Positions 15,974 through 57,705 of a stretch of DNA of 64,000 nucleotides are shown here, in pieces. The stretch covers positions 46,226 through 110,225 of IMG/VR virus record IMGVR_UViG_3300045988_091501; one strand, written 5' to 3'. This DNA is from a virus. The notes under the pieces were generated by a model. That model saw nothing but the letters and a program-made list of their open reading frames with translations. It searched no databases and was not told the DNA's origin. Every line of letters starts with the position of its first letter. The stretch's first letter is position 1. Position numbers and translations under genes: made by a program.

Positions 15974-15974
15974 T

Positions 15975-16543: not shown

Positions 16544-16558
16544 AAAGGAGTACATATT

Positions 16559-16927: not shown

Positions 16928-16938
16928 GAGATGGTAAT

Positions 16939-18196: not shown

Positions 18197-18235
18197 ATGG
18201 GGAGAGGTCTTAATTGACTTCTCCCCATTTTTTTA
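18197..18235 (+). terminator. intrinsic terminator at the convergence of the late and early modules
   Basis: 13-bp stem atggggagaggtc / gacttctccccat (one G-T pair), 6-nt loop, then a T7 run. Confidence 0.8.
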
Positions 18236-20876: not shown

Positions 20877-21266
20877 TCAAATATATTCTCCTTTTACATG
20901 ACCACTTAACACACCTTTAGATTGCAGATATTCCATCCATTCTTCAACTTGTTCAAAGGTGATTAAAGCTGGTTCAAATGTAGGATTTTTGTGAAGCATA
21001 TACTGATAATCGTAAGGCTGGCAAAAATCTTCATCTAATACATCAATGCGAATATCTGAACCGTCTTTAGGAATTGATACACTAAATGAAATATCAAAAC
21101 CTCTATATCTTTTTGTTTGTGGAAATTTAATAGGTCTACAAAAGTACCAACTTGGTTCATAATGATTAGTAAAGCCAATTTCTTTCATTTCTTCTTCTGA
21201 TAAAATATGTGCTTTGATTTTAGCGTTTACTCCATGACTATTTACTTCTACTTTTTCATCAAACAT
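20877..21266 (-). CDS. hypothetical protein
   Basis: 129-aa ORF with AAGGAGG RBS. Confidence 0.7.
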   Translation of the reverse strand: MFDEKVEVNSHGVNAKIKAHILSEEEMKEIGFTNHYEPSWYFCRPIKFPQTKRYRGFDISFSVSIPKDGSDIRIDVLDEDFCQPYDYQYMLHKNPTFEPALITFEQVEEWMEYLQSKGVLSGHVKGEYI

Positions 21267-21273
21267 AAAATCA

Positions 21274-21309
21274 CCTCCTTTATGATATGTATTATACCAT
21301 ATAAGGAGG
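21274..21309 (-). terminator. SD/anti-SD hairpin spanning the -10 box
   Basis: Minus-strand RNA CCUCCUUAU ... AUAAAGGAGG (7-9 bp with one bulge). The 3' arm is the RBS of 20877-21266. Confidence 0.45.
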
Positions 21310-21319
21310 CAATTGTCAA
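21291..21319 (-). promoter_or_regulatory. consensus sigma-A promoter
   Basis: TTGACA-17-TGGTATAAT. Confidence 0.75.
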
Positions 21320-21322
21320 GAA

Positions 21323-21829
21323 TTAATATAATTCTTTTGCTAAAATTATTTTTTCAGATTTGATTGTTTTATTTACATCAATAATCCTCTGATTAGAAGA
21401 GCCTATAAGATGTAATTTATAATCTTTAAGAGAATCAATAAATTCCCCATCAATAAGATAATCAACAAGTCCTTCACGCAAACAATCTCTTGGAACATCT
21501 TTAATTATAAGTTGCTCATAGGTGTAACCACTCCATACAAATATTGGTTTACCAACTTCATGCCTCAGTCTTTGTAAAAACCAATAAAAATGTTCCCCTT
21601 GGTCAAATGGTTCACCACCTAAAATAGATACGCAGTCAATATATGGGCTATTACACAAAGAAATAAATTTATCTTCTATTTCTTTAGTCCATTCTTCTCC
21701 ACCTTTAAAGTCCCAAGTTTCTTGATTAAAACAACCTTTGCAATGATGAGAACAACCTTGTACAAATAAAGAACACGCTATACCAATACCATTTACAACA
21801 TCCATATCTCTGATACTTGCATATCTCAT
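21323..21829 (-). CDS. nrdG: anaerobic RNR activating protein
   Basis: Radical-SAM CSHHCKGC cluster. ATG at 21829 follows AAAGGAG. Confidence 0.85.
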   Translation of the reverse strand: MRYASIRDMDVVNGIGIACSLFVQGCSHHCKGCFNQETWDFKGGEEWTKEIEDKFISLCNSPYIDCVSILGGEPFDQGEHFYWFLQRLRHEVGKPIFVWSGYTYEQLIIKDVPRDCLREGLVDYLIDGEFIDSLKDYKLHLIGSSNQRIIDVNKTIKSEKIILAKELY

Positions 21830-21832
21830 AAA

Positions 21833-21879
21833 AAACATCTCCTTTCATAGTATATATTATACCATAAAAAGAGATGTTT
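21833..21879 (-). terminator. SD/anti-SD hairpin with the -10 box in the loop
   Basis: AAACAUCUCUUU ... AAAGGAGAUGUUU (one bulge) followed by a U-run and the nrdG ATG. Confidence 0.5.
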
Positions 21880-21884
21880 GTCAA
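21856..21884 (-). promoter_or_regulatory. consensus sigma-A promoter
   Basis: TTGACA-17-TGGTATAAT, directly after the nrdD stop. Confidence 0.75.
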
Positions 21885-21889
21885 TGATT

Positions 21890-24058
21890 TTATTTAATTT
21901 CGTGATTATCTAAGTGAACAAATCTGTGAGCTATTTCATCTGTTCTTCCATCATTCCAAAAATTACTTCCAATATAACCGCAAGTACGTCTGGCTACATT
22001 CATCTTGCTATGGTCACGATTTTTGCAATTAGGACATTCCCAAATTAATTCTCCATTTTCATCAATAATTTTAATTTCACCATCATAACCACATACTTGA
22101 CAATAGTCAGATTTAGTATTGAGTTCAGCGTACATAATATTATCATAAATAAATTTTATAATATTAAGCACTGCTTGAACATTATGTGTTAAATCAGCAC
22201 ATTCAATATATGAAATTGCACCACCCAATGACAGCTCTTGAAATTTTGATTCAATGCTTAATTTATCGAATGGATTGATTTCTTCAAACACTGGAATATG
22301 ATAACTATTAGTAATATAGTTTCTATCTTTTCCGTCTAACTTAACAAAAATATCATTACCAAATCTTTCTTTTAACTTCTTAGCAAATTTATAAGTAGTG
22401 GATTCAATAGGAGAACCGTATAATGAATATCCTAAGTTATCTTGTTTTTTCCATTGCTCGCACTTGTTGTTTAAATACTGCATAATTTCAATCCCAAAAG
22501 AATGACCTTTATCATTGTTTGAATGTGATTGTTTTGTCATATATTTAACACATTCATATAAACCAGCATAACCTAAAGAAATGCTTGAATAACCACCGAA
22601 CAACAATTTATCAATAGGTTCATGTTGATTTAACCTTGCTAATGCTCCATCTTGCCATAGAATAGGTGCTACATCACTAGAAGTTCCTAATAATCTTTTA
22701 TGCCTTAACATTAAAGCCCTATGACATAACTCACAACGGTCTTCTAAAATATTCCAAAATTTATCCATATTTCCCTCGGAACTAAAAGCAACATCTGGTA
22801 AATTGATAGTTACTACACCTTGATTAAAACGACCATAAAATTTATAATTCCCTTGTTCATCTTTCCAAGGGGCTAAAAACGAACGGCATCCCATGTTAGG
22901 GAAACAATTACCTTCTTTTAATTCTTTCATTTTCTTTTCAGAAATATAGTCTGGAACAAGTCTTTTAGCCGTACATTGTGCCGATAGTTTTGTTAAATAC
23001 CAATAAGGAGAATTTTCGTGAATATTATCCTCTTCAAGAACATATAATAATTTTGGAAATGCTTGGGTTACATAAACTCCAACTTTATTCTTCATTCCTT
23101 GAATACGTTGTTTTAAAAATTCCTCAATAATCATAGCAAGTTCTTGCTTGTATTCTTTTGTTTCTCCTAAGTACATAAACACACTTAAGAAAGGAGCTTG
23201 TCCGTTTGTCGTAGACATACTGTTTATTTGATAATTAAATGTTTGCACACCATCTTCAATTTCTTTTGTTAAATCTTCCATTGCATATTTTTCTGCTTCT
23301 AAGTTGGTATTCCCACGTTTTATGTATTTATTATATGCAATATCATAACTATATTTAACAAAGGGTGCAAGATGAGATAAGCTAATGGTGCAACCACCAT
23401 ATTGTGAACTAGCGACTGCTGTAATAATTTGTGTGGCAACAGTGCAAACAGTCAAAAATCTATGTGGTTTATCAATACGAACTCCGTTAATAACTGTTCC
23501 ATTTTGCAACATATCTTCAAGATTGATTAAATCGCAATTATGCAAAGCCTTTTGACCAAAATAATCCATATCGTGAAAATGAATTATTCCTTCTTCATCG
23601 GCTTGTAAAATGTCTGGTGGCATAAGAAACCTTTTTGTAATATCTTTACTTATAATCCCAGCCATGTAATCTCTTTGAGTTGTAGCAAGTTCAGCATTTT
23701 TATTAGAGTTTTCTTTGTTTAAATATTCATTAGTACCGTTTAATAAATTGATTAAATCTTCATCTGTACTATTCTGAACATATCTTTGATATTCTCTTAC
23801 TTGTCTATAGCCCTCATATGCTTTTGCAGTATTTTTTTGTTTATATTTAATCAATTTATCAAATACCATTGATTCAATAGTATAAATTTCTACTTCTTCA
23901 ATTTGTTTTTGTAATAATTCTTGTTCGATTTCTTCTGCAATTCTTAATGCAATTTTTTCTTTAATGCCTTCTCCATATGGCATTGCTTTCATAATCGCGT
24001 TAGAAATTTTTTCTTTATTAAAAGGAACTTCCGTACAATCACGTTTAATTACATTCAT
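21890..24058 (-). CDS. nrdD: anaerobic ribonucleoside-triphosphate reductase
   Basis: 722 aa. ATP-cone N-terminus, C-terminal CQVCGY..CPNC zinc site and RRTCGYIG glycyl-radical motif. Confidence 0.9.
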   Translation of the reverse strand: MNVIKRDCTEVPFNKEKISNAIMKAMPYGEGIKEKIALRIAEEIEQELLQKQIEEVEIYTIESMVFDKLIKYKQKNTAKAYEGYRQVREYQRYVQNSTDEDLINLLNGTNEYLNKENSNKNAELATTQRDYMAGIISKDITKRFLMPPDILQADEEGIIHFHDMDYFGQKALHNCDLINLEDMLQNGTVINGVRIDKPHRFLTVCTVATQIITAVASSQYGGCTISLSHLAPFVKYSYDIAYNKYIKRGNTNLEAEKYAMEDLTKEIEDGVQTFNYQINSMSTTNGQAPFLSVFMYLGETKEYKQELAMIIEEFLKQRIQGMKNKVGVYVTQAFPKLLYVLEEDNIHENSPYWYLTKLSAQCTAKRLVPDYISEKKMKELKEGNCFPNMGCRSFLAPWKDEQGNYKFYGRFNQGVVTINLPDVAFSSEGNMDKFWNILEDRCELCHRALMLRHKRLLGTSSDVAPILWQDGALARLNQHEPIDKLLFGGYSSISLGYAGLYECVKYMTKQSHSNNDKGHSFGIEIMQYLNNKCEQWKKQDNLGYSLYGSPIESTTYKFAKKLKERFGNDIFVKLDGKDRNYITNSYHIPVFEEINPFDKLSIESKFQELSLGGAISYIECADLTHNVQAVLNIIKFIYDNIMYAELNTKSDYCQVCGYDGEIKIIDENGELIWECPNCKNRDHSKMNVARRTCGYIGSNFWNDGRTDEIAHRFVHLDNHEIK

Positions 24059-24243
24059 CTAATCCATATCTCCTTACAATCTTCTTCATCATTACTTTCC
24101 ATAAATTCCATTTGTAATAATTCTTCATCTATTTTATCATAATCATTTAGCCCATATTCCTCACATCTTATCTGTCCTCCTTCAAACCATAATAGAGCAA
24201 TTTGTTCATATGGTTGCTCTAATAAATACTCCTTTAGTGTCAT
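24055..24243 (-). CDS. hypothetical acidic protein
   Basis: 62-aa ORF, overlap-coupled to nrdD. Confidence 0.55.
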   Translation of the reverse strand: MTLKEYLLEQPYEQIALLWFEGGQIRCEEYGLNDYDKIDEELLQMEFMESNDEEDCKEIWIR

Positions 24244-24263
24244 TAGTAATTATATCCTCCTTT

Positions 24264-24974
24264 CTATTTATAAAATGTATGACCACTTTCATCTGTGAAT
24301 TGTTTAGTCCAACCATTCCATTCATTAGGACTACAATCACTTCTGAAAGCAACACAACCGTTAGTAGTGTCTTCTACCATGTAAGCATACAACAACGCAT
24401 ATACAGTTGAATCACTAATATTATCACGACCATAAGCAAATTGATTCTTTTGTGTAATCAATTCAACAGGATCAGTTGGAAATTGATCTGATTCAATCCT
24501 GTTTAAGATTACATTGGCAACGTTTACTTTACAATCAAAACTTGCTTCATGTGCTTCGGTTTCAATACATTTAAGCATCATGGTAATTTCACTCTCTGTA
24601 AACACATCATAAGGTGTTTCTGGTAAATCATCAAACTCGTAAATGTTGAACAATGCGTTGTAATATAACTGAAACCATACATATTTATCTTGGTCTTTGA
24701 TGCTTTCAATTAAATATAAGAAATGCAAACACTCTTCATTTTCTCGTTCACTTTGATTATACTCCATTTCAGAACATTTGTCAACATATTTATCATTTAG
24801 TTCATTATAGTTAATGCTTGACCTTTCAATATCCCCTTGTAAGCTCGTATTAGCCGATTCTAGGGCTTCAATTTGTCCTTGCTTAGACTTTATTGTATAG
24901 CCCATAATCATTAAAATTAGAGTCAATAAAACGATTCCTACACACTGAATAATATTATACTTCTCTATTTTCAC
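24264..24974 (-). CDS. membrane-anchored SleB-like cell-wall hydrolase
   Basis: GTG start 9 nt after GGAG. N-terminal TM, coiled coil, and C-terminal ETEAHEAS..VANVILNRIESDQFP..QKNQFAY (Hydrolase_2-like). Confidence 0.55.
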   Translation of the reverse strand: MKIEKYNIIQCVGIVLLTLILMIMGYTIKSKQGQIEALESANTSLQGDIERSSINYNELNDKYVDKCSEMEYNQSERENEECLHFLYLIESIKDQDKYVWFQLYYNALFNIYEFDDLPETPYDVFTESEITMMLKCIETEAHEASFDCKVNVANVILNRIESDQFPTDPVELITQKNQFAYGRDNISDSTVYALLYAYMVEDTTNGCVAFRSDCSPNEWNGWTKQFTDESGHTFYK

Positions 24975-24990
24975 TTTCTTCTTCTCCTTC

Positions 24991-27261
24991 TTAGTCTACT
25001 TGAGTAATAGGAACTTTTGCTTCTTCACATCTCGTCATCAGTTCTTTTAACCATGTATCACGTTCAGCATTGCCATCAATCAACAAAGCATCATTATATG
25101 TAGCCATATCACCAATATCAATTTGCATAATTTTAGAACGTGTATCAGCAACATATAATAGATTTCTATTTAACATTCTTTTGTGGCTAGGACTAACTAC
25201 ATTTAATACATATTTAGCCTCTGACCCTTGGCTTGCGTGGACACTAATACAATATGCTAACAATAAGTTTTGTAATTTAACTTTATCAAACACAATCAGT
25301 TCTTCATCAAACTGAGCAACAAGTTTCTTATCATCAAGTTCTCTAATAATACCATCTTGACCATTAAATACACTTGTTAAAGCAACGTCATCTAAACTTA
25401 ACATATTATCAGATTGTTCAATTTCTTTCCAAGAATCATATGGCAATGCTTGGTAGTCATTTTTCTTATTTAGTAATTTATCCCCAACTCTGAAAGAAAT
25501 TGTGGTTTTGTCTTTATCGACTTTTCTATCTAAGTGCATTTCATTAGGCTTTGGAGGATTGACTTCTGCTTGAATTGCATTGTTAATTCTATATGAACCT
25601 TCATCTCCTACATTAAACGGACTTAAACAAAGTATATCATGTGGCTTAACCCCTTTAGACAATAGTTTATTGTACTGTTCTACAATGGTGTCAAAAATAT
25701 TATCAGTTTGAACAAATTTGTAATTGTTATACACACTATACTCATTGTTATGTACTTTTACTATATCATTATCAAAGAACTGCTTTCCTTGTCTTACGTT
25801 TGTGGCAACAAATATGCCACCATCGGTATCATATCTAAAGATTTCATCAAGAGTAATCATAGGAACTTTGCCGCTATTGATTAAATCATTAAATACACAA
25901 CCAATTCCTACTGGCATTAACTGAGCTGGGTCGCCAACAAGAACAACTCTGATATTTGGATTCTCAATTACATTTAACATCATAAGAAAAGTAGGTAAAT
26001 CTGTCATACTCATTTCATCTACAATTAAAACGTCAGTAGAAATTTCACCATCTCTCAATGCTTTTCTATGAATAGTGCTTGCTCGACGATTAACGGACTC
26101 TGTAATTCTACGTGAAGCCTTCCCAGTCGGTGCTAATAAAGTATAAGTCATTCCATTGCTTTCCATTAGTTTAATAATTCCACGAATTGAAGTCGTTTTA
26201 CCGGAACCGGAATATCCTGCTAGAATCATAAAATTATATTTACAGAACATTTCAAGTGCTTTTCCTTGTTTTTCGGACATTGTAAAATCATCAATAGTAG
26301 TATATTGTGTCCAATCAATATCAAGTTGTGTGCTATTTGTAATCTTGTCTTTCACAAAATCAGCAACTTTACATTCGCCTTGATAAGTAGACATAATGCT
26401 TAAATCTTTTGACTTCTCATCATAATAGAATAAATCATTATTCATTGCGGTAGGAACAATTAAAGGTTCAAGTTCAGGCACATTATACTCTTCCATGATA
26501 TAATAATATAAATCATTTCCATTAAGTCTTGTACTGCCCTCTTGTTCATTTCTTTCCAACACACTTAAAATCAAATAAGCGCATCTCATTTCACTTACTT
26601 TTAAGTCTTTTCTTAATTCCATAATCGCTCTATCAGCAAATTCAAAAGAACGACCAAGTGTTGAGATTAAAACTTTATAAGGATTGGATTGAATTTCTTT
26701 TGCAATATGTTCTTCATCAAGATATTCTTCAATTAACTTCTTGCAGTCACTTACATCAAATTTGTAATCCTTGAAATGTTGAATAATACCAAGATACTTA
26801 TATTTTTCAAGTAAGTTTCTTGCATAAGCACCAAGATACACTTCTCCGACACCTTTGATTCTACTTACATCAATAACATCTTTGCCTTGAGTTAAAATCA
26901 ATTCAATGAAATCAGGATATGCTTCTAAGATATTATCAGCAATTCTTTCACTTGTAGTACAATCCATAAGAATTTCTTTCTTTTGGTCTAAAGTAAGCGT
27001 TGACACATCAAAGTTGCTCATAGATGGAACTGATAAAATTTTATACGTTCCACCGTATCTTTTGTCATAGGCAATTTCTTCAATTTCAATTTCATAGTCT
27101 TTATTTTCATCTATATATGAATCACCACCTTTCGTTGAAAAGGTAAAGTAAGGACTTAATTTGACACTATCATTGTGGTCAATAGGACTCCATGAAAATA
27201 TTCTATAATCATCTTTCTTAAAACAACATTTTACACATCTTGCTTTTAATGTAATACTCAT
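24991..27261 (-). CDS. RecD-like SF1 DNA helicase
   Basis: GYSGSGKTT (Walker A), LIVDEMSM (Walker B), VGDPAQL, ISVHASQGSE. Confidence 0.75.
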   Translation of the reverse strand: MSITLKARCVKCCFKKDDYRIFSWSPIDHNDSVKLSPYFTFSTKGGDSYIDENKDYEIEIEEIAYDKRYGGTYKILSVPSMSNFDVSTLTLDQKKEILMDCTTSERIADNILEAYPDFIELILTQGKDVIDVSRIKGVGEVYLGAYARNLLEKYKYLGIIQHFKDYKFDVSDCKKLIEEYLDEEHIAKEIQSNPYKVLISTLGRSFEFADRAIMELRKDLKVSEMRCAYLILSVLERNEQEGSTRLNGNDLYYYIMEEYNVPELEPLIVPTAMNNDLFYYDEKSKDLSIMSTYQGECKVADFVKDKITNSTQLDIDWTQYTTIDDFTMSEKQGKALEMFCKYNFMILAGYSGSGKTTSIRGIIKLMESNGMTYTLLAPTGKASRRITESVNRRASTIHRKALRDGEISTDVLIVDEMSMTDLPTFLMMLNVIENPNIRVVLVGDPAQLMPVGIGCVFNDLINSGKVPMITLDEIFRYDTDGGIFVATNVRQGKQFFDNDIVKVHNNEYSVYNNYKFVQTDNIFDTIVEQYNKLLSKGVKPHDILCLSPFNVGDEGSYRINNAIQAEVNPPKPNEMHLDRKVDKDKTTISFRVGDKLLNKKNDYQALPYDSWKEIEQSDNMLSLDDVALTSVFNGQDGIIRELDDKKLVAQFDEELIVFDKVKLQNLLLAYCISVHASQGSEAKYVLNVVSPSHKRMLNRNLLYVADTRSKIMQIDIGDMATYNDALLIDGNAERDTWLKELMTRCEEAKVPITQVD

Positions 27262-27524
27262 TTTCTACTCCAATTCTCTAAATAATTAGCTATTTCTGTT
27301 ATGTTATTTCTTGATTCAATATACTTGTCTATACTTTCTTGAATAAATTGAATAACAGCTTTTGGGGCACAAGAAATTTTTACTGAACTCATATAAGAAT
27401 CATATGAACGTATTGTAGTCCATAGAAACTTCTTTTTTACTTTTACATCACATTGCACTCCTAAACTATCTGCGTTAATATTTACTTTAAAAGTATAACC
27501 ATCTTTCTTTATAATCTTAGTCAT
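27258..27524 (-). CDS. hypothetical protein
   Basis: 88-aa ORF, ATGA-coupled to the helicase gene. Confidence 0.6.
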   Translation of the reverse strand: MTKIIKKDGYTFKVNINADSLGVQCDVKVKKKFLWTTIRSYDSYMSSVKISCAPKAVIQFIQESIDKYIESRNNITEIANYLENWSRK

Positions 27525-27690
27525 AATATTTATATTTATTCTCCTTCTTTTTATTTACAACTTTAAATCCTTTTCTTGCTTTATATTTATCACAGGTCTG
27601 ACATAATTTCTTCTGTTCAGCATTTCTTCCTTTGTCACATTTACCTTTACAAATATAATAGATACAAGGTGCTAATCTTTCTTTAGACAT
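27517..27690 (-). CDS. 57-aa Cys-rich (zinc-ribbon-like) protein, absent from the ORF track
   Basis: MSKERLAPCIYYICKGKCDKGRNAEQKKLCQTCDKYKARKGFKVVNKKKENKYKYYD. AAAGGAG RBS. First gene after the promoter at 27720. Confidence 0.6.
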   Translation of the reverse strand: MSKERLAPCIYYICKGKCDKGRNAEQKKLCQTCDKYKARKGFKVVNKKKENKYKYYD

Positions 27691-27693
27691 AAA

Positions 27694-27743
27694 AAATATC
27701 TCCTTTCATTGATATAGTAATTATACCATGAAAGGAGATATTT
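27694..27743 (-). terminator. 16-bp perfect SD/anti-SD hairpin with the -10 box in its loop
   Basis: 27694-27709 is the exact reverse complement of 27728-27743. The 3' arm AUGAAAGGAGAUAUUU is followed by UUU and the ATG. Confidence 0.6.
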
Positions 27744-27748
27744 GTCAA
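27720..27748 (-). promoter_or_regulatory. consensus sigma-A promoter
   Basis: TTGACA-17-TGGTATAAT. Confidence 0.75.
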
Positions 27749-27756
27749 GTAAAAAT

Positions 27757-28212
27757 TTACCATCTTAATTCAAAATATTTATTATAAATCTTATTCCATT
27801 CTGCTTGTGTAATTCCACCTCTATCATATTTTTCTTCTAAATTATAAAGGCATTGTGCAAGATAACGGTCTGTATGCCAATTACTAAATAAAGGCTCATA
27901 TTCATTGTTGATAAGTACACTTAATTGTCCCCCAAATGTGCTTGATACAGATATTCTACCTTTTAAGTATTGACATAACTTGGCTTTGGTCTTATCAGAA
28001 ACATTGTAGCCACGTTTCTCCATTTCTGTAATGACTAAATTACAATACAATCTAAAATGATCCAAGTCATAATTCATAATAGGATTGATAAGAATTTGAT
28101 TAGTTGCCCCTTTTTCATAAATATCTTTAGCAATAGCAACACATTCTCTTAACTGAGAACACAACTGTTGTCTAGGTAATACATCTAACAAATCATAATG
28201 CCATAATCTCAT
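27757..28212 (-). CDS. DenV / pyrimidine-dimer glycosylase-family protein (TIGR02328-like)
   Basis: The N-terminus MRLWHYDLLDVLPRQQLCSQLREC matches the MRLWH..LP.QQL..QhREC signature from memory. Confidence 0.5.
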   Translation of the reverse strand: MRLWHYDLLDVLPRQQLCSQLRECVAIAKDIYEKGATNQILINPIMNYDLDHFRLYCNLVITEMEKRGYNVSDKTKAKLCQYLKGRISVSSTFGGQLSVLINNEYEPLFSNWHTDRYLAQCLYNLEEKYDRGGITQAEWNKIYNKYFELRW

Positions 28213-28215
28213 ATT

Positions 28216-28602
28216 TTACTCCTTTACAATATACTTACTCAACATATCAATTTCTTCTTGTAATTCTTTAATGTGAGATTCAATTTCTTCCCATTCATCT
28301 GTTTCAAAATTATAATAAAAACTTGCTGGGAAATTACCATTATAATCAATATTATTTGTTCTATTGTCATTAAATATTTTATTCAGATAGTTTAGTGCTT
28401 CCTTAGATTTACAAACCACATAAGCACTGTCTTGTGATAAACGATAATCATTATCAAGCGGAAGTAATGTTCCATAGTCATTATATGCAAACAAGTCTTT
28501 ACCATACTTATCTTGTAATTCTTTGCTTTCATATCTTTCACATTCATTTTCATACTCAAATTCTTTACCATCAAATGCAATATAAATTGTCTTCTCTGTC
28601 AT
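28216..28602 (-). CDS. hypothetical protein
   Basis: 128-aa ORF. Confidence 0.65.
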   Translation of the reverse strand: MTEKTIYIAFDGKEFEYENECERYESKELQDKYGKDLFAYNDYGTLLPLDNDYRLSQDSAYVVCKSKEALNYLNKIFNDNRTNNIDYNGNFPASFYYNFETDEWEEIESHIKELQEEIDMLSKYIVKE

Positions 28603-28606
28603 ATTA

Positions 28607-28771
28607 TTACCCCTTTCTAATATGCCGAATTATTTTATCTAATAAATTAAGTTGCGCGAATAGCTCTTGCCTATATGTTCCCTCTGCTCTGTCGTAACTA
28701 CCAATTCCATATAAATGAGCATCAATATCATCTTTTTGCTCATAAAGCCAAATTAGTAAATCTTTATCCAT
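28607..28771 (-). CDS. 54-aa hypothetical protein, absent from the ORF track
   Basis: AAGGAGG RBS. Translation verified codon by codon (MDKDLLIWLYEQKDD...). Confidence 0.55.
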   Translation of the reverse strand: MDKDLLIWLYEQKDDIDAHLYGIGSYDRAEGTYRQELFAQLNLLDKIIRHIRKG

Positions 28772-28785
28772 ATTATTTTTCCTCC

Positions 28786-29187
28786 TTAAATAATTCCAAT
28801 CGTTTCGTCTTCATAATTACATTTCTTTGCTTTTTCAAACATATCTAAATATTTTTCATCAAATTCAAATGTATCTTTTTTAATATTTGCAATTAATGTC
28901 AAGCATCTATTATACATTTCTGTTGTAAAATCTTTGCAATTTATATTATTTCTATTCCTATTAAAAATATAATAAATTAAATTAGGAGTTCTCTTAATTG
29001 CTTCTGATACCAAAGGCTCTAAAAATAAATGTAAAACAAAATCTTTGGTCAATTCTACTTGTGACTCACCGTAAGTATAATATTTATCATAATATGCTTG
29101 CATAGCTGAAAGTTTGTCTTTATATAATTCTTTGTTGTACCAACCTTTGCAAATTAGCATAATATCAATTAAAGTATTATCTGTCAT
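28786..29187 (-). CDS. hypothetical protein
   Basis: 133-aa ORF. Confidence 0.65.
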   Translation of the reverse strand: MTDNTLIDIMLICKGWYNKELYKDKLSAMQAYYDKYYTYGESQVELTKDFVLHLFLEPLVSEAIKRTPNLIYYIFNRNRNNINCKDFTTEMYNRCLTLIANIKKDTFEFDEKYLDMFEKAKKCNYEDETIGII

Positions 29188-29348
29188 TCAATCACCTCCA
29201 CTTCTAAGTTTTCACATCTCAATCTACTAGCAATTTGTTTACTAAATATTTGATATTGATAAGGATGACGCAGAGCTATACATTCTTCTGCTAATCGTTC
29301 ACACGCTTCTTTTAATAATTCTACATCATCTGTTAAAATCTTAATCAT
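29184..29348 (-). CDS. 54-aa hypothetical protein, absent from the ORF track
   Basis: AGGAGG lies 7 nt upstream. TAATG and ATGA overlaps with both neighbours. Confidence 0.55.
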   Translation of the reverse strand: MIKILTDDVELLKEACERLAEECIALRHPYQYQIFSKQIASRLRCENLEVEVIE

Positions 29349-29524
29349 TATCGTACCTCCTGTAACTTTTCATATAATTCTTCATACATTTCATTATTGA
29401 AATAAACCACTCTACTAGCAAGCATCTTAATAATTTCTTTAGCCTCGTCTAATGTTTGAATATCATCTATTGCTTTTGGGTCATGTTTCATAATACGTTT
29501 GTATAAACTATAAATATTGTTCAT
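29348..29524 (-). CDS. 58-aa hypothetical protein, absent from the ORF track
   Basis: MNNIYSLYKRIMKHDPKAIDD..., verified codon by codon. The RBS is weak. Confidence 0.45.
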   Translation of the reverse strand: MNNIYSLYKRIMKHDPKAIDDIQTLDEAKEIIKMLASRVVYFNNEMYEELYEKLQEVR

Positions 29525-29527
29525 AAT

Positions 29528-29710
29528 TTAACCCTTCCATTCACAGTGTAATACATTTTTATGGAAATTCATTGCACATTCTTTGCACAATAAAATTTTG
29601 GTTGAATGGTCAAGATATTCACCTTCCCATCTAACTGTATATTCTTTTGCCTCATTAAAATCTGTAATTTCTTTTCCACATTTGTCACAATGATATTTAG
29701 TTACTGTCAT
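29528..29710 (-). CDS. zinc-ribbon protein
   Basis: Start MTVTKYHCDKCGK after GGAAAGGAG. A second CKEC pair is present. Confidence 0.6.
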   Translation of the reverse strand: MTVTKYHCDKCGKEITDFNEAKEYTVRWEGEYLDHSTKILLCKECAMNFHKNVLHCEWKG

Positions 29711-29715
29711 AATAA

Positions 29716-29765
29716 AAATCTCCTTTCCATTTGATACTTGTATTATATCATAGGAAAGGAGATTT
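29716..29765 (-). terminator. 13-bp perfect SD/anti-SD hairpin with the -10 box in its loop
   Basis: 29716-29728 is the reverse complement of 29753-29765. The 3' arm GGAAAGGAGAUUU is followed by UUAUUAUG. Confidence 0.55.
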
Positions 29766-29770
29766 GTCAA
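29742..29770 (-). promoter_or_regulatory. consensus sigma-A promoter
   Basis: TTGACA-17-TGATATAAT, 3 nt after the polymerase stop. Confidence 0.75.
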
Positions 29771-29773: not shown

Positions 29774-32700
29774 TTAATCTATACTTTTTAATATTGTATA
29801 ATCTCTTAAAATTTCTTCTTGTTCTTCACTTTCAACCCACTTGTCATTATTGTCTTTAACACGTTTATTTTGTGTTCTAAAAGCAGTTTTAATTATGTCC
29901 CCACTCTTACATGGGTGGTCTTCATAATTACGTTTATTTGCCTTAATAAAGGTGTTCTCACCATCATTAACGTGATATAAAGTAACAAATGGAGTGTTGT
30001 ATTGATTTAACTCTACTTCTGATACAATGTAAATATTATCATCTGTTGATTTATCAATCAATTCTGTATAACCACTAAGTCCTAATTGATAAGCCATTGT
30101 TTCAAGTAATGTAATAGGTTTATACATATACTTTGTAGAAACAAAATCAACAATTCCTTGATAATTATTTAGAATATATTCCATTAAAGAAACATTATCA
30201 ATTTCTTTGAACATTTTTTCTGTTTCTTTACCACAAAATTGTTTAATTTCATGTATATTTAATCCAAAGTTTATACATTCATCTTTCTTTAATTGTTTAC
30301 ATTCTCTTAATCTTTTCATAATAGAATCAACATCATTATAAATATTCCATTGATTTATTACATAATTCACATCCCCATATTCTGCAAAATAATCTAACTT
30401 AAATAAAATATCAATACTCTTTTTATTCAAATCACTTTGTAATAAATCTTTAAAAATAAAGAACAACCCATCATATTCATTTTTATGTTGACTCATATTG
30501 TATAAGATTTGTGGTGCTACCTTTTGCATATTCTTTATACTTGCCATAGTTTGATTGATACAATTGTTTTCTCTATCAATGGAAAATTGTCTATTGTCAT
30601 CACCAAATGCAATAGGTTTTAATTTGATGCCACGTTTAAGCATTTCTTTCTTTAATGCAGTTACCTTATCTTTGTCACCTTTGTTAGTATATCTTTGTAA
30701 TGTTACTTTATAAAATTCTAATGGATAATAAGCCTTTTGCCAAGCAAGTGTAACACTATCAATAGCCATACAATAAGCATGAGCAGAATTGAAACCATAA
30801 GAAGCACTATCCTCAATTACTTGCCATACTTTTTCAGCCATTTTCATAGCATTATCTTTGTCTGTTGTTTCTTTTGTGTTAAGTATAGCTTGTGCAAAAT
30901 TAGGAATAAACTTTTCTTTTGCTTGTGTAATCACATAATGTTTCTTTTTACTAATAGCTTTAATGATTGTATATGTTTCACTCATAGGAAATCCCGCAAA
31001 TCCTAATACTTTCATTAAATGCTCTTGATATAAAATAAATGAGCTTGAACAATATTGGTCTTGAATAAGGTCATCAAAAGCCTTTATTCCATAATCAAAA
31101 TGTTTGCGTTGTTCAAATGTTTTATACATTGATTGAAATGATGGTCTAATACCAGCTACAAATTGTGTCAACTCTGAAATGTTCTTTGGTTTAAATCTCA
31201 TAACTTTTTCAGTAGATTTTTGTTGCTCACATTGATTCACACACATTGTATAACCATTAGCATAAATATCCCAAGTCTTACTATCATTGTCAATCTTAGC
31301 AAGCAATTCGTTTACAGATAATGGTTCAATTCCTATCTCTTTATAAATATCATAGGTCAATCCAATAGAATCTACAATGAGGTAGTCCTGCTTCAACATG
31401 CCGAAAGCATCAATAGTGCCACTTTCAATAACCGCAACGAAAGTTTCTTTAGCTTTATCTCCTTGTGATTCAGATTTTACCATGATAACCCCGACTTCTT
31501 CTACAACATCAAAGTCTGCGCAAATTGTGCCGCAAGGATGTGCTTTCAAATTATCTACAATTCCCATGTATTGTTGACAACCATCAATTAAATATCCATA
31601 TTTTTCTTTATCAACATAATCATAAATATCAATAAATTCTTTTTCATCATCATCTGCGTGTTTTAAAGCATTTTCATATTTACTAATTTGCTTTGTTACA
31701 GTATTGGCTAATTGTGGATCAAGATTATATGCTCTTGAATACATTTTAAATGCAGATTTATAATGCAATGTACCTAAAGCCAATAGGTCAAATGTTCCTT
31801 CTTCCCCAATTATATCTTTTTGCGCTTGTATAAATGGTTCTCTTGATGATACATTGTGGTCAATGTCTGGCGGTGTGTGAGAATCTAATACTCTTTCTTT
31901 TGTTAAAAATCTTTCAGAATACATAAGCACTGGTGAATTAACTTTATCTACTTTTGTAAATCTAAATAATTTATTCAAATAACAAGATACGCCACTACCT
32001 CTACCACTAGGAGTCAATATCCCACCATATTCATCAATTCCACGTTTCATTATTTCATAAGTATCAATGAAATAATCAGCCATGTTACATCCTTCAATTT
32101 CGGCTATATCATGCTTAATTTCTTTAATATATTCATCATACTTATCTTTGTTAATATCATTAGATTGCCTTTCCCATTCATATCTAAGGATATTCTCAAA
32201 AACTTCATTTCTTTGTTCTTGTGTTAAATCACGATATTTTTTAGCCACAGGAACTTTTAATGACCTATCCAATATAATATCATCAAATGTAAGTATAATA
32301 TTAGTATTCTCTATTGCTTCTGTAATTTCTTCATCACTTAAAATTCCTTGTTCTTTAAATCTATTAAAGAATGTTTCATAACTTGGTAAATCCATATACC
32401 AACCTTGTTCATCTTCATAACTAATCTTATTAGATTTTAACAAGTCGTCTCTATCTGCCATTTGTGATTCAGTAATAACATGACTGTCAGTTCCAGCTAT
32501 AATTGGAATGTTATATTTATAATGCAATTCCATAATATGAGCATTTATTTCTTTTTGTGCTTGTGTATTATGAGGTTGCACTTCAAGATAAAAATCTGTG
32601 AAATGATTAAATAATTTAAGAACAATTTCATCAATTTTTGAATAGTCAACTACATTAGCATTATCACCAAATGGCAAATCTCTATCATCTATTGTATATT

Positions 32701-33190: not shown

Positions 33191-33746
33191 TACTACCTTC
33201 CCTTTCCCACCAATAACCATATGCTGATTTTTGTTTTCCACTAATTACACCATTTATATTAGATGAACATATTTTATTATTTTTACAAATTTTAATTGAA
33301 TTTAAGTATTCAATTGCTTCTTTTGAAGAGTTGAATAATTTAATTTTTTTATGTGTTATTTTATCACACATCCATATTTTTTTCTTTTTTGAAATTGATA
33401 AATTTTTATTATGATTTCCATAATTATTATTATATTTTTGTGTGCCCCATTCTAAATTATAATAATTATTATTTAATTTATTTTCATCTTTATGACATAC
33501 AATTGGATAATTATTTGGATTCTCAACAAACGCTAAAGCCACTAATCTATTTATACGATATGTTCTCATATCATTATTCCCATATCTTAAAGTTATTTGT
33601 TCATATCCATATTTATTTATATGTTTTGTAAGCCATTTATTTGTATTTGTTGACCAAACATTGCCATCATTTGTTATATAAAACATTTTTGAATCATCTA
33701 TTGGTTTAATATATGTATCATCAAGTAAATTTGGTACTAATTTCAT
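33183..33746 (-). CDS. HNH homing endonuclease (NUMOD4-like)
   Basis: FYITNDGNVWS (NUMOD4-like), VCHKDENKLNNNYYNLEWGT (HNH). Sits immediately upstream of the polymerase gene. Confidence 0.75.
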   Translation of the reverse strand: MKLVPNLLDDTYIKPIDDSKMFYITNDGNVWSTNTNKWLTKHINKYGYEQITLRYGNNDMRTYRINRLVALAFVENPNNYPIVCHKDENKLNNNYYNLEWGTQKYNNNYGNHNKNLSISKKKKIWMCDKITHKKIKLFNSSKEAIEYLNSIKICKNNKICSSNINGVISGKQKSAYGYWWEREGSNE

Positions 33747-33780: not shown

Positions 33781-33809
33781 ATTATATCACAAAAGACCAC
33801 CTTTGTCAA
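33781..33809 (-). promoter_or_regulatory. consensus sigma-A promoter
   Basis: TTGACA-17-TGATATAAT. Confidence 0.75.
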
Positions 33810-33820
33810 GTGGTCTTTTT
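33791..33820 (-). terminator. terminator hairpin with the -35 hexamer in its loop
   Basis: AAAAAGACCAC-UUGACAAAG-GUGGUCUUUU on the minus-strand RNA. Confidence 0.65.
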
Positions 33821-34753: not shown

Positions 34754-34781
34754 TTTTTATATCTCCTTTCATATTAAAATT

Positions 34782-34797: not shown

Positions 34798-34810
34798 AAT
34801 CCATCAATTT

Positions 34811-34826: not shown

Positions 34827-34845
34827 AAAAAGGAGCTTTTGTCAA
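34817..34845 (-). promoter_or_regulatory. consensus sigma-A promoter
   Basis: TTGACA-17-TGTTATAAT. 64 nt from the -10 to the methyltransferase ATG. Confidence 0.75.
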
Positions 34846-34854
34846 GCCCCTTTT
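34828..34854 (-). terminator. terminator hairpin with part of the -35 hexamer in its loop
   Basis: AAAAGGGGCUU-GACAA-AAGCUCCUUUU (one mismatch). Confidence 0.55.
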
Positions 34855-47172: not shown

Positions 47173-47201
47173 ATTATAACATAAAAATCCAGTCTTGTCA
47201 A
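47173..47201 (-). promoter_or_regulatory. consensus sigma-A promoter
   Basis: TTGACA-17-TGTTATAAT. Confidence 0.75.
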
Positions 47202-47211
47202 CTGGATTTTT
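47183..47211 (-). terminator. terminator hairpin with the -35 hexamer in its loop
   Basis: AAAAAUCCAGU-UGACAAG-ACUGGAUUUUU, an 11-bp perfect stem. Confidence 0.7.
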
Positions 47212-47218
47212 AATAAAT

Positions 47219-54901: not shown

Positions 54902-54930
54902 ATTATAACATAAAATAGTCATTTTGTCAA
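54902..54930 (-). promoter_or_regulatory. consensus sigma-A promoter
   Basis: TTGACA-17-TGTTATAAT. Confidence 0.75.
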
Positions 54931-54946
54931 TGCCTATTTTATCTAT

Positions 54947-57093: not shown

Positions 57094-57122
57094 ATTATAT
57101 CACAAAAAGGAGTCTTTGTCAA
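57094..57122 (-). promoter_or_regulatory. consensus sigma-A promoter
   Basis: TTGACA-17-TGATATAAT. Confidence 0.75.
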
Positions 57123-57131
57123 CTCCTTTTT
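57104..57131 (-). terminator. SD-like/anti-SD terminator hairpin with the -35 hexamer in its loop
   Basis: AAAAAGGAGU-UGACAAAG-ACUCCUUUUU, a 10-bp perfect stem. Confidence 0.7.
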
Positions 57132-57705
57132 ACCACTGGTACATTACTAATCCATTCCAACCTTTTTGCCATTCACGCTCTTTGCCATCATAATATTCCC
57201 TCATCTGTACTTTATAGTCAGCATTACAATCAATTAAATTTTGTGTACTATCATCAATAAATAAAGAATACTCATCAATATTATTCATATTGATAAAACC
57301 TTTACTTACATTCAACGGCAATGCAATCATCTGAATGTCTTTAAACCCTCTATCGTCAAACCACTTTCTTTTAAGCGCATAATTTTCAATATTTGCTTTA
57401 GTCACAAGAATAATCTTATCCCTATATCTATCCATAAATTCTAAAGATCCGTCAATAGGTTTGACAATCTTAAAAAATAACCCATTGTTAAATATACTTT
57501 CAACTTCTTCACTTGTCATTCCACGATAGCAACACTGAAAATTCCAACTTGTTACATCTGAACCATCAAAATTGCCACCATAGCGTTCATTCAGAATATC
57601 AATCATAGCTTGGCAAGAATGAAAAATTACTCCATCTATGTCAAGAAATATTTTATCAATTTCATTATCTGTAATAAAACTGTCAATATCTTTAATTACT
57701 CTCAT
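57130..57705 (-). CDS. HAD-family 5'(3')-deoxyribonucleotidase-like protein
   Basis: IFLDIDGVIF (DxDxV motif I). Size and layout resemble NT5C-type phage nucleotidases. Confidence 0.5.
   Translation of the reverse strand: MRVIKDIDSFITDNEIDKIFLDIDGVIFHSCQAMIDILNERYGGNFDGSDVTSWNFQCCYRGMTSEEVESIFNNGLFFKIVKPIDGSLEFMDRYRDKIILVTKANIENYALKRKWFDDRGFKDIQMIALPLNVSKGFINMNNIDEYSLFIDDSTQNLIDCNADYKVQMREYYDGKEREWQKGWNGLVMYQW

What the first reader, a model, noticed from the sequence alone, without database searches (positions are those of the whole stretch)
21274..29765. The same anti-SD / -10-in-loop / SD architecture recurs at three more promoters
The first site is 29716-29728 versus 29753-29765: a 13-bp perfect pair, AAAUCUCCUUUCC ... 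GGAAAGGAGAUUU, followed by UUAUUAUG of the zinc-ribbon gene. The second is 21833-21845 versus 21868-21879: 12-13 bp with one bulge, AAAGGAGAUGUUU followed by UUUAUG of nrdG. The third is 21274-21283 versus 21301-21309: CCUCCUUAU ... AUAAAGGAGG. In each case the 5' arm lies in the 17-bp promoter spacer, TATAAT lies in the loop, and the 3' arm is the downstream SD. Four independent occurrences with different arm sequences argue for selection on the structure rather than chance. They also imply that the promoter spacers are constrained to encode anti-SD strings.
Basis: partly seen in the sequence, partly recalled or inferred. Interest (0 to 1): 0.65.

Follow-up and report, generated by a model that had tools for sequence, protein, structure and literature searches.

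The report
Promoter-embedded hairpins insulating phage genes
Four strong phage promoters each sit inside an RNA hairpin that only transcripts arriving from the upstream gene can form, so those transcripts are probably stopped or left untranslatable at the gene boundary; this is a real, selected structure, but a variant of designs already known from phage T4 and its relatives.

Summary
All genes here are on the minus strand. Four of the 21 perfect TTGACA-N17-TATAAT promoters have a spacer complementary to their own Shine-Dalgarno (SD) region: -35 boxes at 29770, 27748, 21884 and 21319. The hairpins are longer than reported (13-26 bp, dG -21 to -29 kcal/mol). No spacer shuffle reaches them, and the other 17 promoters sit at background.

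Related metagenomic phages show compensatory and G-C to G-U changes. The stems fold well only as sense RNA, so selection acts on RNA.

- The 5' arm lies upstream of the predicted transcription start, so only read-through RNA from the upstream gene can form the hairpin.
- Each hairpin is followed by a U-run found at no other minus-strand gene.
- Five further promoters carry terminator hairpins with the -35 box in the loop.
- The cassettes mark gene insertions, deletions and swaps between relatives.

Best reading: these are composite terminator/promoter cassettes, like the PeSLs of T4-type phages. They also mask the SD in read-through RNA, as in T4 genes e and I-TevI. I rate this a new variant of a known kind, of moderate interest. 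No transcript data exist, so termination and masking are inferred.

The parts
29708..29770 (-). Type-B cassette upstream of the 60-aa zinc-ribbon gene. -35 box 29765-29770, -10 box 29742-29747, ATG 29708-29710. The DnaE stop codon (29774-29776) lies 3 nt upstream of the -35 box.
   Evidence: perfect 12/12 promoter; hairpin dG -22.9 kcal/mol, z -5.2.
29753..29765 (-). 5' arm AAAUCUCCUUUCC (anti-SD) inside the 17-nt spacer. An inner helix pairs 29745-29750 with 29732-29737.
   Evidence: duplex with own UTR -18.6 kcal/mol; 0 of 1000 shuffles reach it.
29711..29728 (-). 3' arm GGAAAGGAGAUUU (29716-29728, the SD) followed by the U-rich tail UUUUUAUU.
   Evidence: predicted SD unpaired probability 0.88 in the promoter's own transcript and 0.00 in read-through RNA.
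27688..27748 (-). The stop codon of the upstream Pyr_excise (pyrimidine-dimer glycosylase) gene, 27757-27759, lies 8 nt upstream of the -35 box.
   Evidence: (repeat I1), 7, 31, 35, 49: 22 pairs; 3 double-compensated and 3 wobble-only variable pairs in relatives.
21827..21884 (-). Type-B cassette upstream of nrdG. -35 box 21879-21884, -10 box 21856-21861, U6 run 21830-21835, ATG 21827-21829. The nrdD stop codon lies 5 nt upstream of the -35 box.
   Evidence: (repeat I5), 7, 9, 36, 50: 22-bp stem, 3-nt loop, dG -27.6 kcal/mol, z -8.5. It is the only type-B site that the terminator scan also flags.
21858..21879 (-). 5' arm of the nrdG hairpin: spacer plus the first four bases of the -10 box (AAACAUCUCUUUUUAUGGUAUA).
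21833..21854 (-). 3' arm of the nrdG hairpin, containing the SD AAAGGAG (21839-21845).
   Evidence: Three G-U pairs make the fold specific to the sense strand (sense -21.6, antisense -9.3 kcal/mol).
21264..21319 (-). Type-B cassette upstream of the 129-aa gene. -35 box 21314-21319, 5' arm 21294-21312, -10 box 21291-21296, 3' arm with SD 21271-21288, U4 run 21267-21270, ATG 21264-21266. The nrdG stop codon lies 3 nt upstream of the -35 box.
   Evidence: dG -21.7 kcal/mol, z -4.6. Relatives carry UG, UA or CA at the two wobble positions, and all variants pair.
57103..57132 (-). Type-A fusion: terminator-like hairpin AAAAAGGAGU/GACUCCUUUUU with the -35 box (TTGACA) in the loop. The 3' arm is the promoter spacer, and a U-run runs into the -10 box.
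54910..54942 (-). Type-A fusion at the promoter whose -35 box is at 54930.
   Evidence: (repeat I23).
47182..47212 (-). Type-A fusion AAAAAUCCAGU-UGACA-AGACUGGAUUUUU at the promoter whose -35 box is at 47201.
34829..34853 (-). Type-A fusion AAAAGGGGCU-UGACA-AAGCUCCUUUU at the promoter whose -35 box is at 34845.
   Evidence: Relatives show a G-U to A-U change.
33791..33819 (-). Type-A fusion AAAGACCAC-UUGACAA-GGUGGUCUUU at the promoter whose -35 box is at 33809.

Best explanation
Each site is a compact cassette of about 60 nt that combines a read-through insulator with a promoter.

RNA polymerase arriving from the upstream gene transcribes the promoter spacer (the 5' arm), then the -10 region, then the SD region (the 3' arm). 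The resulting long hairpin is followed directly by a U-run just before the ATG. I propose two effects on that RNA:
1. The hairpin plus U-run acts as an intrinsic terminator or attenuator of upstream transcription.
2. In any RNA that reads through, the hairpin locks the SD of the next gene in a helix, so the gene is not translated from foreign transcripts.

Transcripts started at the embedded consensus promoter begin inside the loop or 3' arm. They lack the 5' arm, so they are neither terminated nor masked and carry a free SD on an 18-25 nt leader.

Because the sigma-factor contacts leave the spacer sequence free, the spacer can encode the anti-SD arm. The same cassettes serve as short patches of homology at which genes are inserted, deleted or swapped between related phages.

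Shown by sequence: the promoters, the hairpins, their sense-RNA specificity and covariation, the U-runs, their position right after upstream stop codons, and the mosaic junctions. Inferred: the transcription start positions, termination, translational masking, and recombination as the cause of the mosaics.
For: Structure and selection:
- Fold z-scores are -4.6 to -8.5.
- Cognate spacer/UTR duplexes are -17 to -20 kcal/mol, against a shuffle mean of about -6 +/- 2, with 0 of 1000 shuffles reaching them.
- Relatives show compensatory and wobble-only substitutions.
- Sense RNA folds much better than antisense at two sites: -21.6 against -9.3 and -21.2 against -13.2 kcal/mol.

Read-through-only logic:
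- The 5' arm lies between the -35 and -10 boxes, and the upstream ORFs stop 3-8 nt before the -35 box.
- The predicted unpaired probability of the SD is 0.42-0.88 in the promoter's own transcripts and 0.00 in read-through RNA. At five control promoters the two contexts give broadly similar values (0.36-0.84 and 0.52-0.96).

Terminator component:
- The SD-to-ATG spacers of the four sites are 62-78% U. None of the other minus-strand genes reaches 62%, and the mean over all other genes on both strands is 31% U and 54% A.
- Five other promoters carry canonical A-tract/stem/U-tract hairpins with the -35 box in the loop.
- In relatives, L003:3500 and L072:6607 keep the hairpin with the -10 box in the loop plus the U-run, but the real SD lies free downstream of it.

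Module behaviour:
- L074 carries a hybrid cassette (5' half from the nrdG cassette, 3' half from the 129-aa cassette) exactly where nrdG is missing.
- Identical cassettes precede different genes (L062:3927, L072:9771, L072:7464).
- The 129-aa cassette has at least four different upstream neighbours.

Precedents:
- PeSL stem-loops were shown to terminate transcription and lie between the -35 and -10 boxes or over the -10 box (PMC2839356).
- In T4 genes e and I-TevI, RBS-masking hairpins have the 5' strand carrying the promoter (PMC3014915 and PMC2988022).
Against: - There are no transcript ends, reporter data or known host. Transcription starts are assumed from the consensus.
- The stems are AU-rich and much longer (13-26 bp) than typical terminators. 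The simple terminator scan flags only the nrdG site.
- Part of each U-run pairs with the conserved AAA after TTGACA, so it is not wholly independent evidence for termination.
- In unrelated phage contigs with the same anti-SD-spacer/SD pairing, about half lack a U-run (L150, L125, L219). That argues masking alone can be the selected function.
- Conversely, the two variants with a free SD argue that masking is dispensable.
- Twelve of the 21 perfect promoters in the window have no such hairpin, so insulation is not obligatory.
- It is unclear why nrdG should be uncoupled from nrdD.
Confidence: 0.5

Rival explanations
1. The hairpin is a purely translational device, as in T4 genes e, soc, 49 and I-TevI. 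It does not terminate transcription. It only masks the SD on long transcripts, so that each gene is translated solely from its own promoter. One use would be to silence early genes on later read-through RNA.
For: - The SD core is fully paired in every type-B hairpin and its orthologues.
- Among 93 unrelated viral promoters with CTCCTT in the spacer, 10 pair with their own UTR at or below -15 kcal/mol, against 3.2 expected (0 of 200 shuffles). About half of those have no U-run.
- The stems are longer and more AU-rich than typical terminators.
Against: - The U-rich SD-to-ATG spacers are unique to these four genes on the minus strand.
- The L003:3500 and L072:6607 variants keep the hairpin and U-run but leave the SD free.
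- Sister type-A hairpins at other promoters do not touch any SD.
- The embedded promoter is of the same class as the upstream ones, so there is no evident temporal switch.
Confidence: 0.2
2. The hairpin is simply an intrinsic terminator squeezed into the promoter and leader to save space. Inclusion of the SD in the 3' arm is a geometric by-product with no regulatory value.
For: - Evidence comes from the U-runs, the type-A analogues, and the variants with a free SD.
- Lactococcus phage WRP3 uses many type-A fusions.
- PeSL stem-loops act as terminators (PMC2839356).
Against: - Anti-SD/SD pairing is enriched even where no U-run follows.
- The stems are far longer than termination needs and always cover the whole SD.
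- 5'-arm substitutions are restricted to ones that keep pairing with the invariant SD.
Confidence: 0.17
3. The long perfect duplexes are RNase III processing sites, or 3'-end stabilisers, on polycistronic early RNA. This would resemble the intercistronic RNase III sites of T7 and of Bacillus phage SP82 (from my own knowledge, not tested here).
For: Three of the four stems have at least 20 nearly uninterrupted pairs. The 29770 hairpin has internal loops like those of T7 sites.
Against: - No sequence or structure test for RNase III is available here.
- This reading does not explain the U-run or the type-A hairpins, whose stems are only 10-13 bp.
- The 29770 outer stem has only 13 bp.
Confidence: 0.05
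4. The feature acts at the DNA level. The inverted repeat flanking the -10 box is an operator for a dimeric phage or host repressor, or a cruciform, that shuts off these promoters.
For: The repeats are centred on the -10 region. A true palindromic operator-like pair exists at another promoter (34780-34828).
Against: - The arms differ between sites except for the SD core.
- G-U wobbles make the DNA palindromes imperfect, and the sense RNA folds much better than the antisense.
- Substitutions in relatives are G-C to G-U or compensatory. That preserves RNA pairing, not a recognition sequence.
Confidence: 0.03
5. There is no function. The complementarity is a relic of how the cassettes arise or recombine, for example inverted duplication of an SD segment, or is due to composition.
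For: - The cassettes are paralogous and mobile.
- Terminator stems in this phage are often built from AAAGGAG/CUCCUUU (57122, 34845, and 36455-36482).
Against: - Shuffle and non-cognate controls do not reproduce the complementarity.
- Compensatory changes occur in three junction families, and a distant phage with unrelated arms (L064:4993; DnaE C-terminal part 33% identical) has the same layout.
- The pairing is enriched in unrelated contigs.
Confidence: 0.05

Closest known systems
PeSLs (promoter-early stem-loops): composite terminator/promoter cassettes of T4-type phages RB49/phi1, PST/T4 and nt-1/KVP40 (Arbiol et al. 2010, PMC2839356; Comeau et al. 2014, PMC4122927)
   Same: - PeSLs have a strong sigma-70-type early promoter fused to a stem-loop.
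- The stem lies between the -35 and -10 boxes or over the -10 box.
- The SD and start codon sit at the 3' end, and the element follows directly on the upstream stop codon.
- There are many copies per genome.
- The stem-loop terminates upstream transcription (shown by lacZ assay for PeSLs).
- The cassettes flank insertions, deletions and gene replacements between close relatives. Here that includes a chimeric cassette (L074).
   Different: - The phage lineage is different: an uncultured low-GC phage of about 100-117 kb with a DnaE-type polymerase. It is only distantly related (about 34-36% DnaE identity) to Geobacillus E3, large Bacillus phages and Lactococcus 949/WRP3-like phages.
- The stems are not GGGG...CCCC. 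They are 13-26 bp long, and their 3' arm is the SD itself, so the spacer must be an anti-SD.
- PeSL descriptions place the SD outside the stem.
- Terminator activity is untested here.
T4-type RBS-sequestering hairpins with an embedded promoter (genes e, soc, 49, I-TevI/II/III, segB; Aeh1 mobE) (reviews PMC3014915, PMC2988022)
   Same: The SD is buried in a stable helix only on transcripts started upstream. The promoter lies in or next to the 5' strand, so its own transcripts lack that strand and are translated.
   Different: - In T4 the embedded promoter is a late (gp55) or middle promoter, and the device delays translation of late genes carried on early RNA.
- Here the embedded promoter has the same host-type consensus as the upstream ones, and the genes are replication or nucleotide-metabolism genes.
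- A U-run follows the hairpin here, and the element recurs as a modular cassette.
Intrinsic terminators overlapping the next promoter with the -35 box in the loop ('type A'), seen here in this phage and in Lactococcus phage WRP3 (KM677185)
   Same: The promoter spacer doubles as one arm of a hairpin followed by a U-run. These elements sit at the same kind of gene junctions in the same genome.
   Different: The hairpin lies upstream (5' arm before the -35 box, 3' arm in the spacer). The U-run precedes the -10 box, and the SD is not involved.
Intercistronic RNase III sites of T7 and SP82 early RNA (from my own knowledge, not tested)
   Same: Both are long, near-perfect hairpins between early genes of a lytic phage.
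   Different: Those sites do not embed a promoter or the SD. Nothing here tests for cleavage.

Membership tests
PeSL-type composite promoter/terminator cassette | Strong sigma-70-like early promoter (-35 and -10 boxes) | tested here: met
   21 perfect TTGACA-N17-TATAAT sites, all on the minus strand. Allowing one mismatch gives 27 matches on both strands, against 2.5 expected.
PeSL-type composite promoter/terminator cassette | [quoted passage not shown] | tested here: met
   dG -21 to -29 kcal/mol. The 5' arm is in the spacer, and the -10 box is in the loop or apical stem.
PeSL-type composite promoter/terminator cassette | Intergenic position: upstream stop codon at the 5' end, SD and start codon at the 3' end | tested here: met
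   Stop codons lie 3-8 nt before the -35 box, and the ATG lies 24-31 nt after the -10 box.
PeSL-type composite promoter/terminator cassette | The stem-loop terminates or attenuates upstream transcription | not testable with these tools
   Only indirect support: a U-run follows every hairpin, and the scan flags the nrdG site.
PeSL-type composite promoter/terminator cassette | Repeated in the genome and associated with insertion, deletion or replacement of flanking ORFs between close relatives | tested here: met
   - L074 has a hybrid cassette at the nrdG deletion.
- The same cassette precedes different genes (L062, L072).
- The 129-aa cassette has at least four upstream contexts.
- An HNH endonuclease and a methylase are inserted with their own cassettes.
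PeSL-type composite promoter/terminator cassette | Occurs in T4-type myoviruses, with G-run/C-run stems | tested here: not met
   The phage has a DnaE-type polymerase and is distantly related to Geobacillus E3, Bacillus and Lactococcus phages. The stems are anti-SD/SD sequences.
T4-type RBS-sequestering hairpin with embedded promoter | The SD or AUG is paired in a stable helix on upstream-initiated RNA | tested here: met
   Tested in silico only: the predicted unpaired probability of the SD is 0.00 in read-through RNA (folds).
T4-type RBS-sequestering hairpin with embedded promoter | The embedded promoter's own transcripts lack the 5' strand | tested here: met
   By position: the 5' arm lies between the -35 and -10 boxes. 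The transcription start is predicted, not mapped.
T4-type RBS-sequestering hairpin with embedded promoter | The embedded promoter belongs to a later temporal class than the upstream promoters | tested here: not met
   Embedded and upstream promoters share the same consensus TTGACAAA...TRTGnTATAAT.
T4-type RBS-sequestering hairpin with embedded promoter | Translation from long transcripts is reduced | not testable with these tools
   This needs reporter or toeprint assays.
Canonical intrinsic (Rho-independent) terminator | Short GC-rich stem with a 3-8 nt loop | tested here: inconclusive
   The stems have 13-26 bp, are AU-rich, and contain 4-6 G-C pairs. Only the nrdG hairpin passes the scan.
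Canonical intrinsic (Rho-independent) terminator | A U-tract immediately 3' of the stem | tested here: met
   The tails are U6, U6, U5AUU and U4. The SD-to-ATG spacers are 62-78% U, compared with a mean of 31% at the other genes.
RNase III processing site | About 20 bp or more of dsRNA; cleavage by RNase III | not tested
   The length criterion is met at three of four sites. Cleavage cannot be tested here.
Rfam families | Match to any curated RNA family | tested here: not met
   Only two tRNAs were found in the window.

The most novel reading that the evidence does not exclude
These are a general, so far unnamed class of 'self-exempting' gene insulators in phages of low-GC bacteria. A single element of about 60 nt serves as promoter, as terminator for foreign transcripts, and as a translational lock on any read-through, with the promoter spacer co-opted as the anti-SD arm. 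The element also serves as the portable junction at which genes are shuffled. The same pairing is enriched in unrelated viral contigs (10 observed against 3.2 expected; 6 against 0.24 at -19 kcal/mol or below). It also occurs in a distant phage with unrelated arms (L064).
Probability: 0.3. Interest if true: 0.6.

Novelty: new variant of a known kind. Interest (0 to 1): 0.42.

Why it matters
The case shows three functions written into one short stretch of DNA: RNA polymerase recognition, an RNA hairpin, and ribosome binding. The 'free' promoter spacer is used as the anti-SD arm. If confirmed, it would extend PeSL-like mobile regulatory cassettes from T4-type phages of Gram-negative hosts to an uncultured phage with Gram-positive-type signals. 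It would link those cassettes with the T4 trick of masking ribosome sites on long transcripts. It would also offer compact, context-dependent insulator parts for synthetic operons, since the terminator is invisible to the promoter it contains. For annotation, it warns that hairpins at promoters in such phages need not be operators.

Tried and rejected
- A megablast of 9 kb against the GenBank phage collection found no close relative; the only hit covered 2% of the query at 77% identity. Relatives came from IMG/VR and metagenome contigs instead.
- An Rfam scan of the window found only two tRNAs.
- One alignment of all 18 type-B cassettes (A1) was not in structural register across junction families. 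I therefore analysed each junction separately (A2-A4).
- In A2 the L002 arms score as 'broken' only because they are shifted by one position. On its own that sequence is fully paired.
- My first automatic classification of type A and type B, by counting paired spacer bases, was too loose: it called 71 of 103 cassettes 'type B'. I replaced it with duplex-energy thresholds.
- The distant phages Geobacillus E3 and MT835469 show neither architecture in the 43 kb around dnaE. Lactococcus WRP3 shows type A only.
- More distant nrdD-nrdG phages (L004-L012) have no promoter at that junction.
- I considered and rejected the DNA-level operator or cruciform reading, and the composition artefact (see the rival explanations).
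- I considered translational coupling through a ribosome terminating 8-13 nt before the 5' arm. I judged it unlikely, because only a few base pairs of a 13-26 bp stem would be opened.
- Literature searches found PeSLs described only for T4-type and cyanophage genomes. They found no description of the SD-in-stem variant in phages of Gram-positive hosts. The library is limited, so this is not proof of absence.

Full report
**Setting**

The window has a plus-strand block (1-18192), a convergent terminator (18197-18228), and then only minus-strand genes from 18233 to 64000. The minus-strand block encodes replication and nucleotide-metabolism functions. These include a DnaE-type polymerase (29774-33241), a RecD2-like helicase, a Pyr_excise glycosylase, NrdD, NrdG and a dCMP deaminase.

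The window holds 21 perfect TTGACA-N17-TATAAT sites, all on the minus strand. Allowing one mismatch gives 27 matches on both strands, against 2.5 expected. Most have the form TTGACAAA...TRTGnTATAAT.

The phage has no close cultured relative. Its DnaE is 34-37% identical to proteins of Geobacillus virus E3, large Bacillus phages and Lactococcus 949/WRP3-like phages. Close relatives are IMG/VR and metagenome contigs of about 100-117 kb.

**Check of the observation**

The three arm pairs are at the stated coordinates. Read on the coding (minus) strand, each site runs in this order: upstream stop codon, 3-8 nt, -35 box, spacer (5' arm), -10 box, 3' arm containing AAAGGAG or AGGAGG, U-run, ATG.

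| Site (-35 box) | Helix | dG (kcal/mol) | z-score |
|---|---|---|---|
| 21884 (nrdG) | 22 continuous pairs, 3-nt loop | -27.6 | -8.5 |
| 27748 (57-aa gene) | about 25 pairs | -28.4 | -6.7 |
| 21319 (129-aa gene) | about 20 pairs | -21.7 | -4.6 |
| 29770 (zinc-ribbon gene) | 13 + 6 pairs | -22.9 | -5.2 |

Duplex energy between each spacer and its own 40-nt leader is -17.3 to -20.2 kcal/mol for these four sites. It is -1.8 to -10.2 for the other 17 perfect promoters. No spacer shuffle out of 1000 reaches the observed value at any of the four sites. Only 0.2-0.5% of the 420 non-cognate spacer/leader combinations do.

The distribution is bimodal, so AAAGGAG-rich, AT-rich composition does not explain the pairing. 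One caveat is that the 27748 and 21884 cassettes are paralogues and cross-pair at -23.2 kcal/mol.

**Selection acts on an RNA structure**

Orthologous junctions in relatives vary in ways that keep the pairs.

- **nrdG junction.** Contig 127361 (L002, NrdG 92% identical) has UUUUCCUCCUUUUAUGG / CCAUGAAAGGAGGAA in place of AAACAUCUCUUUUUAUGG / CUAUGAAAGGAGAUGUUU. Three pairs changed on both sides.
- **57-aa junction.** L062 has three double changes. Five other variants differ only by C-to-U in the 5' arm opposite G. Overall 98.5% of cells are paired, against 47-65% when the partners are slid. Only 3 of 500 shuffles reach the observed covariation.
- **129-aa junction.** The two wobble positions occur as UG, UA or CA, and all variants pair. 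L002 and L095 carry re-registered arms that are still fully paired, and L095 adds an A-U to G-U change.
- **Distant phage.** L064 (DnaE C-terminal part 33% identical) has the same layout with unrelated arms, AUACACCUUUUAUGUGGUAUA / UAUACUAUAUAAGAGGUGUAU, at -27.1 kcal/mol.

G-U pairs make the fold strand-specific. Sense RNA folds at -21.6 against -9.3 kcal/mol for antisense at 21884, and -21.2 against -13.2 at 21319. This rules out a DNA palindrome recognised by a protein and points to the sense transcript.

The 5' arm lies between the -35 and -10 boxes, upstream of the start of transcription from that promoter. The start is taken as 6-8 nt after TATAAT, from general knowledge of sigma-70/sigma-A promoters; it is not mapped.

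The hairpin can therefore form only in RNA that arrives from the upstream gene. Partition-function folding predicts the consequence. The SD core has an unpaired probability of 0.42-0.88 in the promoter's own transcript and 0.00 in read-through RNA. At five control promoters without the hairpin, the two contexts give broadly similar values (0.36-0.84 and 0.52-0.96).

**Evidence for a terminator component**

1. Each hairpin is followed at once by a U-run: U6, U6, U5AUU and U4. The SD-to-ATG spacers are 62-78% U. No other minus-strand gene reaches 62%, and the mean over all other genes on both strands is 31% U and 54% A.
2. Five other perfect promoters (-35 boxes at 57122, 54930, 47201, 34845, 33809) carry textbook A-tract/stem/U-tract hairpins. 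In these the TTGACA is the loop and the spacer is the 3' arm. I call this 'type A'. So in 9 of 21 promoters the spacer is one arm of a hairpin followed by a U-run.
3. In relatives, two cassettes keep the hairpin with the -10 box in the loop and the U-run, but place the real SD free, downstream of the hairpin. These are L003:3500, before an HNH/NUMOD1 homing endonuclease, and L072:6607, before a DNA methylase.
4. Lactococcus phage WRP3 has many type-A fusions.

Several points count against a pure terminator. The stems are AU-rich and very long. Only the nrdG site passes the simple terminator scan. Part of each U-run pairs with the AAA that follows TTGACA.

**Evidence that SD masking matters in its own right**

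I scanned IMG/VR for consensus promoters with CTCCTT in the spacer. Among 93 such promoters outside this clade:

- 10 pair with their own leader at or below -15 kcal/mol, against 3.2 expected. With CTCCTT held fixed, 0 of 200 shuffles reach this.
- 6 pair at or below -19 kcal/mol, against 0.24 expected.
- About half of the 10 have no U-run (for example L150, L125, L219).
- 18 others are type-A fusions.

Both designs therefore recur in unrelated phages.

**Cassettes as modules**

- nrdG is flanked by two cassettes that share TTGACA...TATGGTATAAT.
- Several relatives lack nrdG altogether. In them the gene that precedes nrdG in L001 is followed directly by the 129-aa cassette.
- L074 has a hybrid: the 5' half of the nrdG cassette joined to the 3' half of the 129-aa cassette, with the junction inside the shared -10 region.
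- The same cassette, identical through the ATG, precedes different genes in L062:3927, L072:9771 and L072:7464.
- The 129-aa cassette has at least four different upstream neighbours.
- More distant homologues of the downstream genes have no cassette at all. L101 has a promoter without a hairpin.
- The element is therefore gained and lost as a unit. No case keeps this cassette's promoter and SD while losing complementarity.

**Comparison with known systems**

[quoted passage not shown] They mediate modular shuffling (PMC2839356; PMC4122927). The present cassettes meet every structural criterion. They differ in lineage, in stem sequence, and in having the SD as the 3' arm. Terminator activity is untested here.

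T4 genes e, soc, 49, I-TevI and others bury the ribosome-binding site in a helix on long transcripts, while a promoter in the 5' strand yields translatable RNA (PMC3014915, PMC2988022). The logic is the same here, but the embedded promoter is not of a later temporal class. Searches found no description of the combined design in phages of Gram-positive hosts. That is a limited search.

**Verdict**

The most likely mechanism is a read-through insulator that the embedded promoter escapes. It would combine termination or attenuation with an SD lock.

| Reading | Confidence |
|---|---|
| Both termination and SD lock | 0.5 |
| SD lock only | 0.2 |
| Terminator only | 0.17 |
| RNase III processing or 3'-end stabiliser | 0.05 |
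| DNA-level operator or cruciform | 0.03 |
| No function | 0.05 |

I file it as a new variant of a known kind: a PeSL-like cassette with T4-like ribosome-site masking. Interest is moderate.

Noticed in passing
window 34780-34828 (- strand promoter with -35 box at 34845): Two perfect copies of TTATGTTA-N4-TAACATAA. One overlaps the -10 box (34809-34828) and the other lies at about +12 to +31 (34780-34799). 0 of 100 shuffles give as many matches. They look like tandem palindromic operators for a dimeric DNA-binding protein controlling the 309-aa gene at 33824-34753.
   Followed up: partly
window 36455-36482 (-): A promoterless perfect 14-bp hairpin, AAAAGGAGUGAAUA/UAUUCACUCCUUUU, lies between two genes and is followed by a free SD and ATG. 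Several terminator stems in this phage (also at 57122 and 34845) are built from SD-like and anti-SD-like strings in the opposite order to the type-B sites.
   Followed up: partly
window 21827-21838: The mechanical ORF start of nrdG (ATG 21838) is probably wrong. The SD spacing, and relative L001 (one T fewer, which puts that ATG out of frame), point to ATG 21829.
   Followed up: yes
window 41396-41466 and 41561-41650 (-): tRNA-Leu(UAA) and tRNA-Ile(UAU) genes lie downstream of the perfect promoter whose -35 box is at 41784.
   Followed up: no
L003:3569-4339 and L072:6670-7464: In relatives, an HNH/NUMOD1 homing endonuclease is inserted between nrdG and the 129-aa gene, and an N6/N4 DNA methylase is inserted after dnaE. 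Each brings its own promoter-hairpin cassette in which the SD lies outside the hairpin.
   Followed up: partly
L074:16216 compared with L001:2950/3514 and L068:15456: A chimeric cassette sits exactly at an nrdG presence/absence polymorphism. This is consistent with deletion by recombination between the two flanking cassettes inside the shared TATGGTATAAT.
   Followed up: partly
L086 (Lactococcus phage WRP3, KM677185) 1630, 7277, 11458, 13943, 23186: Five of the consensus (0-1 mismatch) promoters in this 43-kb region carry a terminator-like hairpin with the -35 box in the loop (type A). No type-B site was seen in this region.
   Followed up: partly
window 24756-24784 (-): A perfect consensus promoter lies inside the listed 236-aa ORF (24264-24974, GTG start, with a cell-wall hydrolase domain at its C-terminus). 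It is either an internal promoter or a sign that the true gene start is further downstream.
   Followed up: no
window, leaders of promoters with -35 boxes at 59296, 57122, 47201, 46903, 29770, 27748: A shared leader motif, UAUCAAAUG(A/G)AAGG, lies between the -10 box and the SD. It suggests that many promoter-leader cassettes are paralogous.
   Followed up: no
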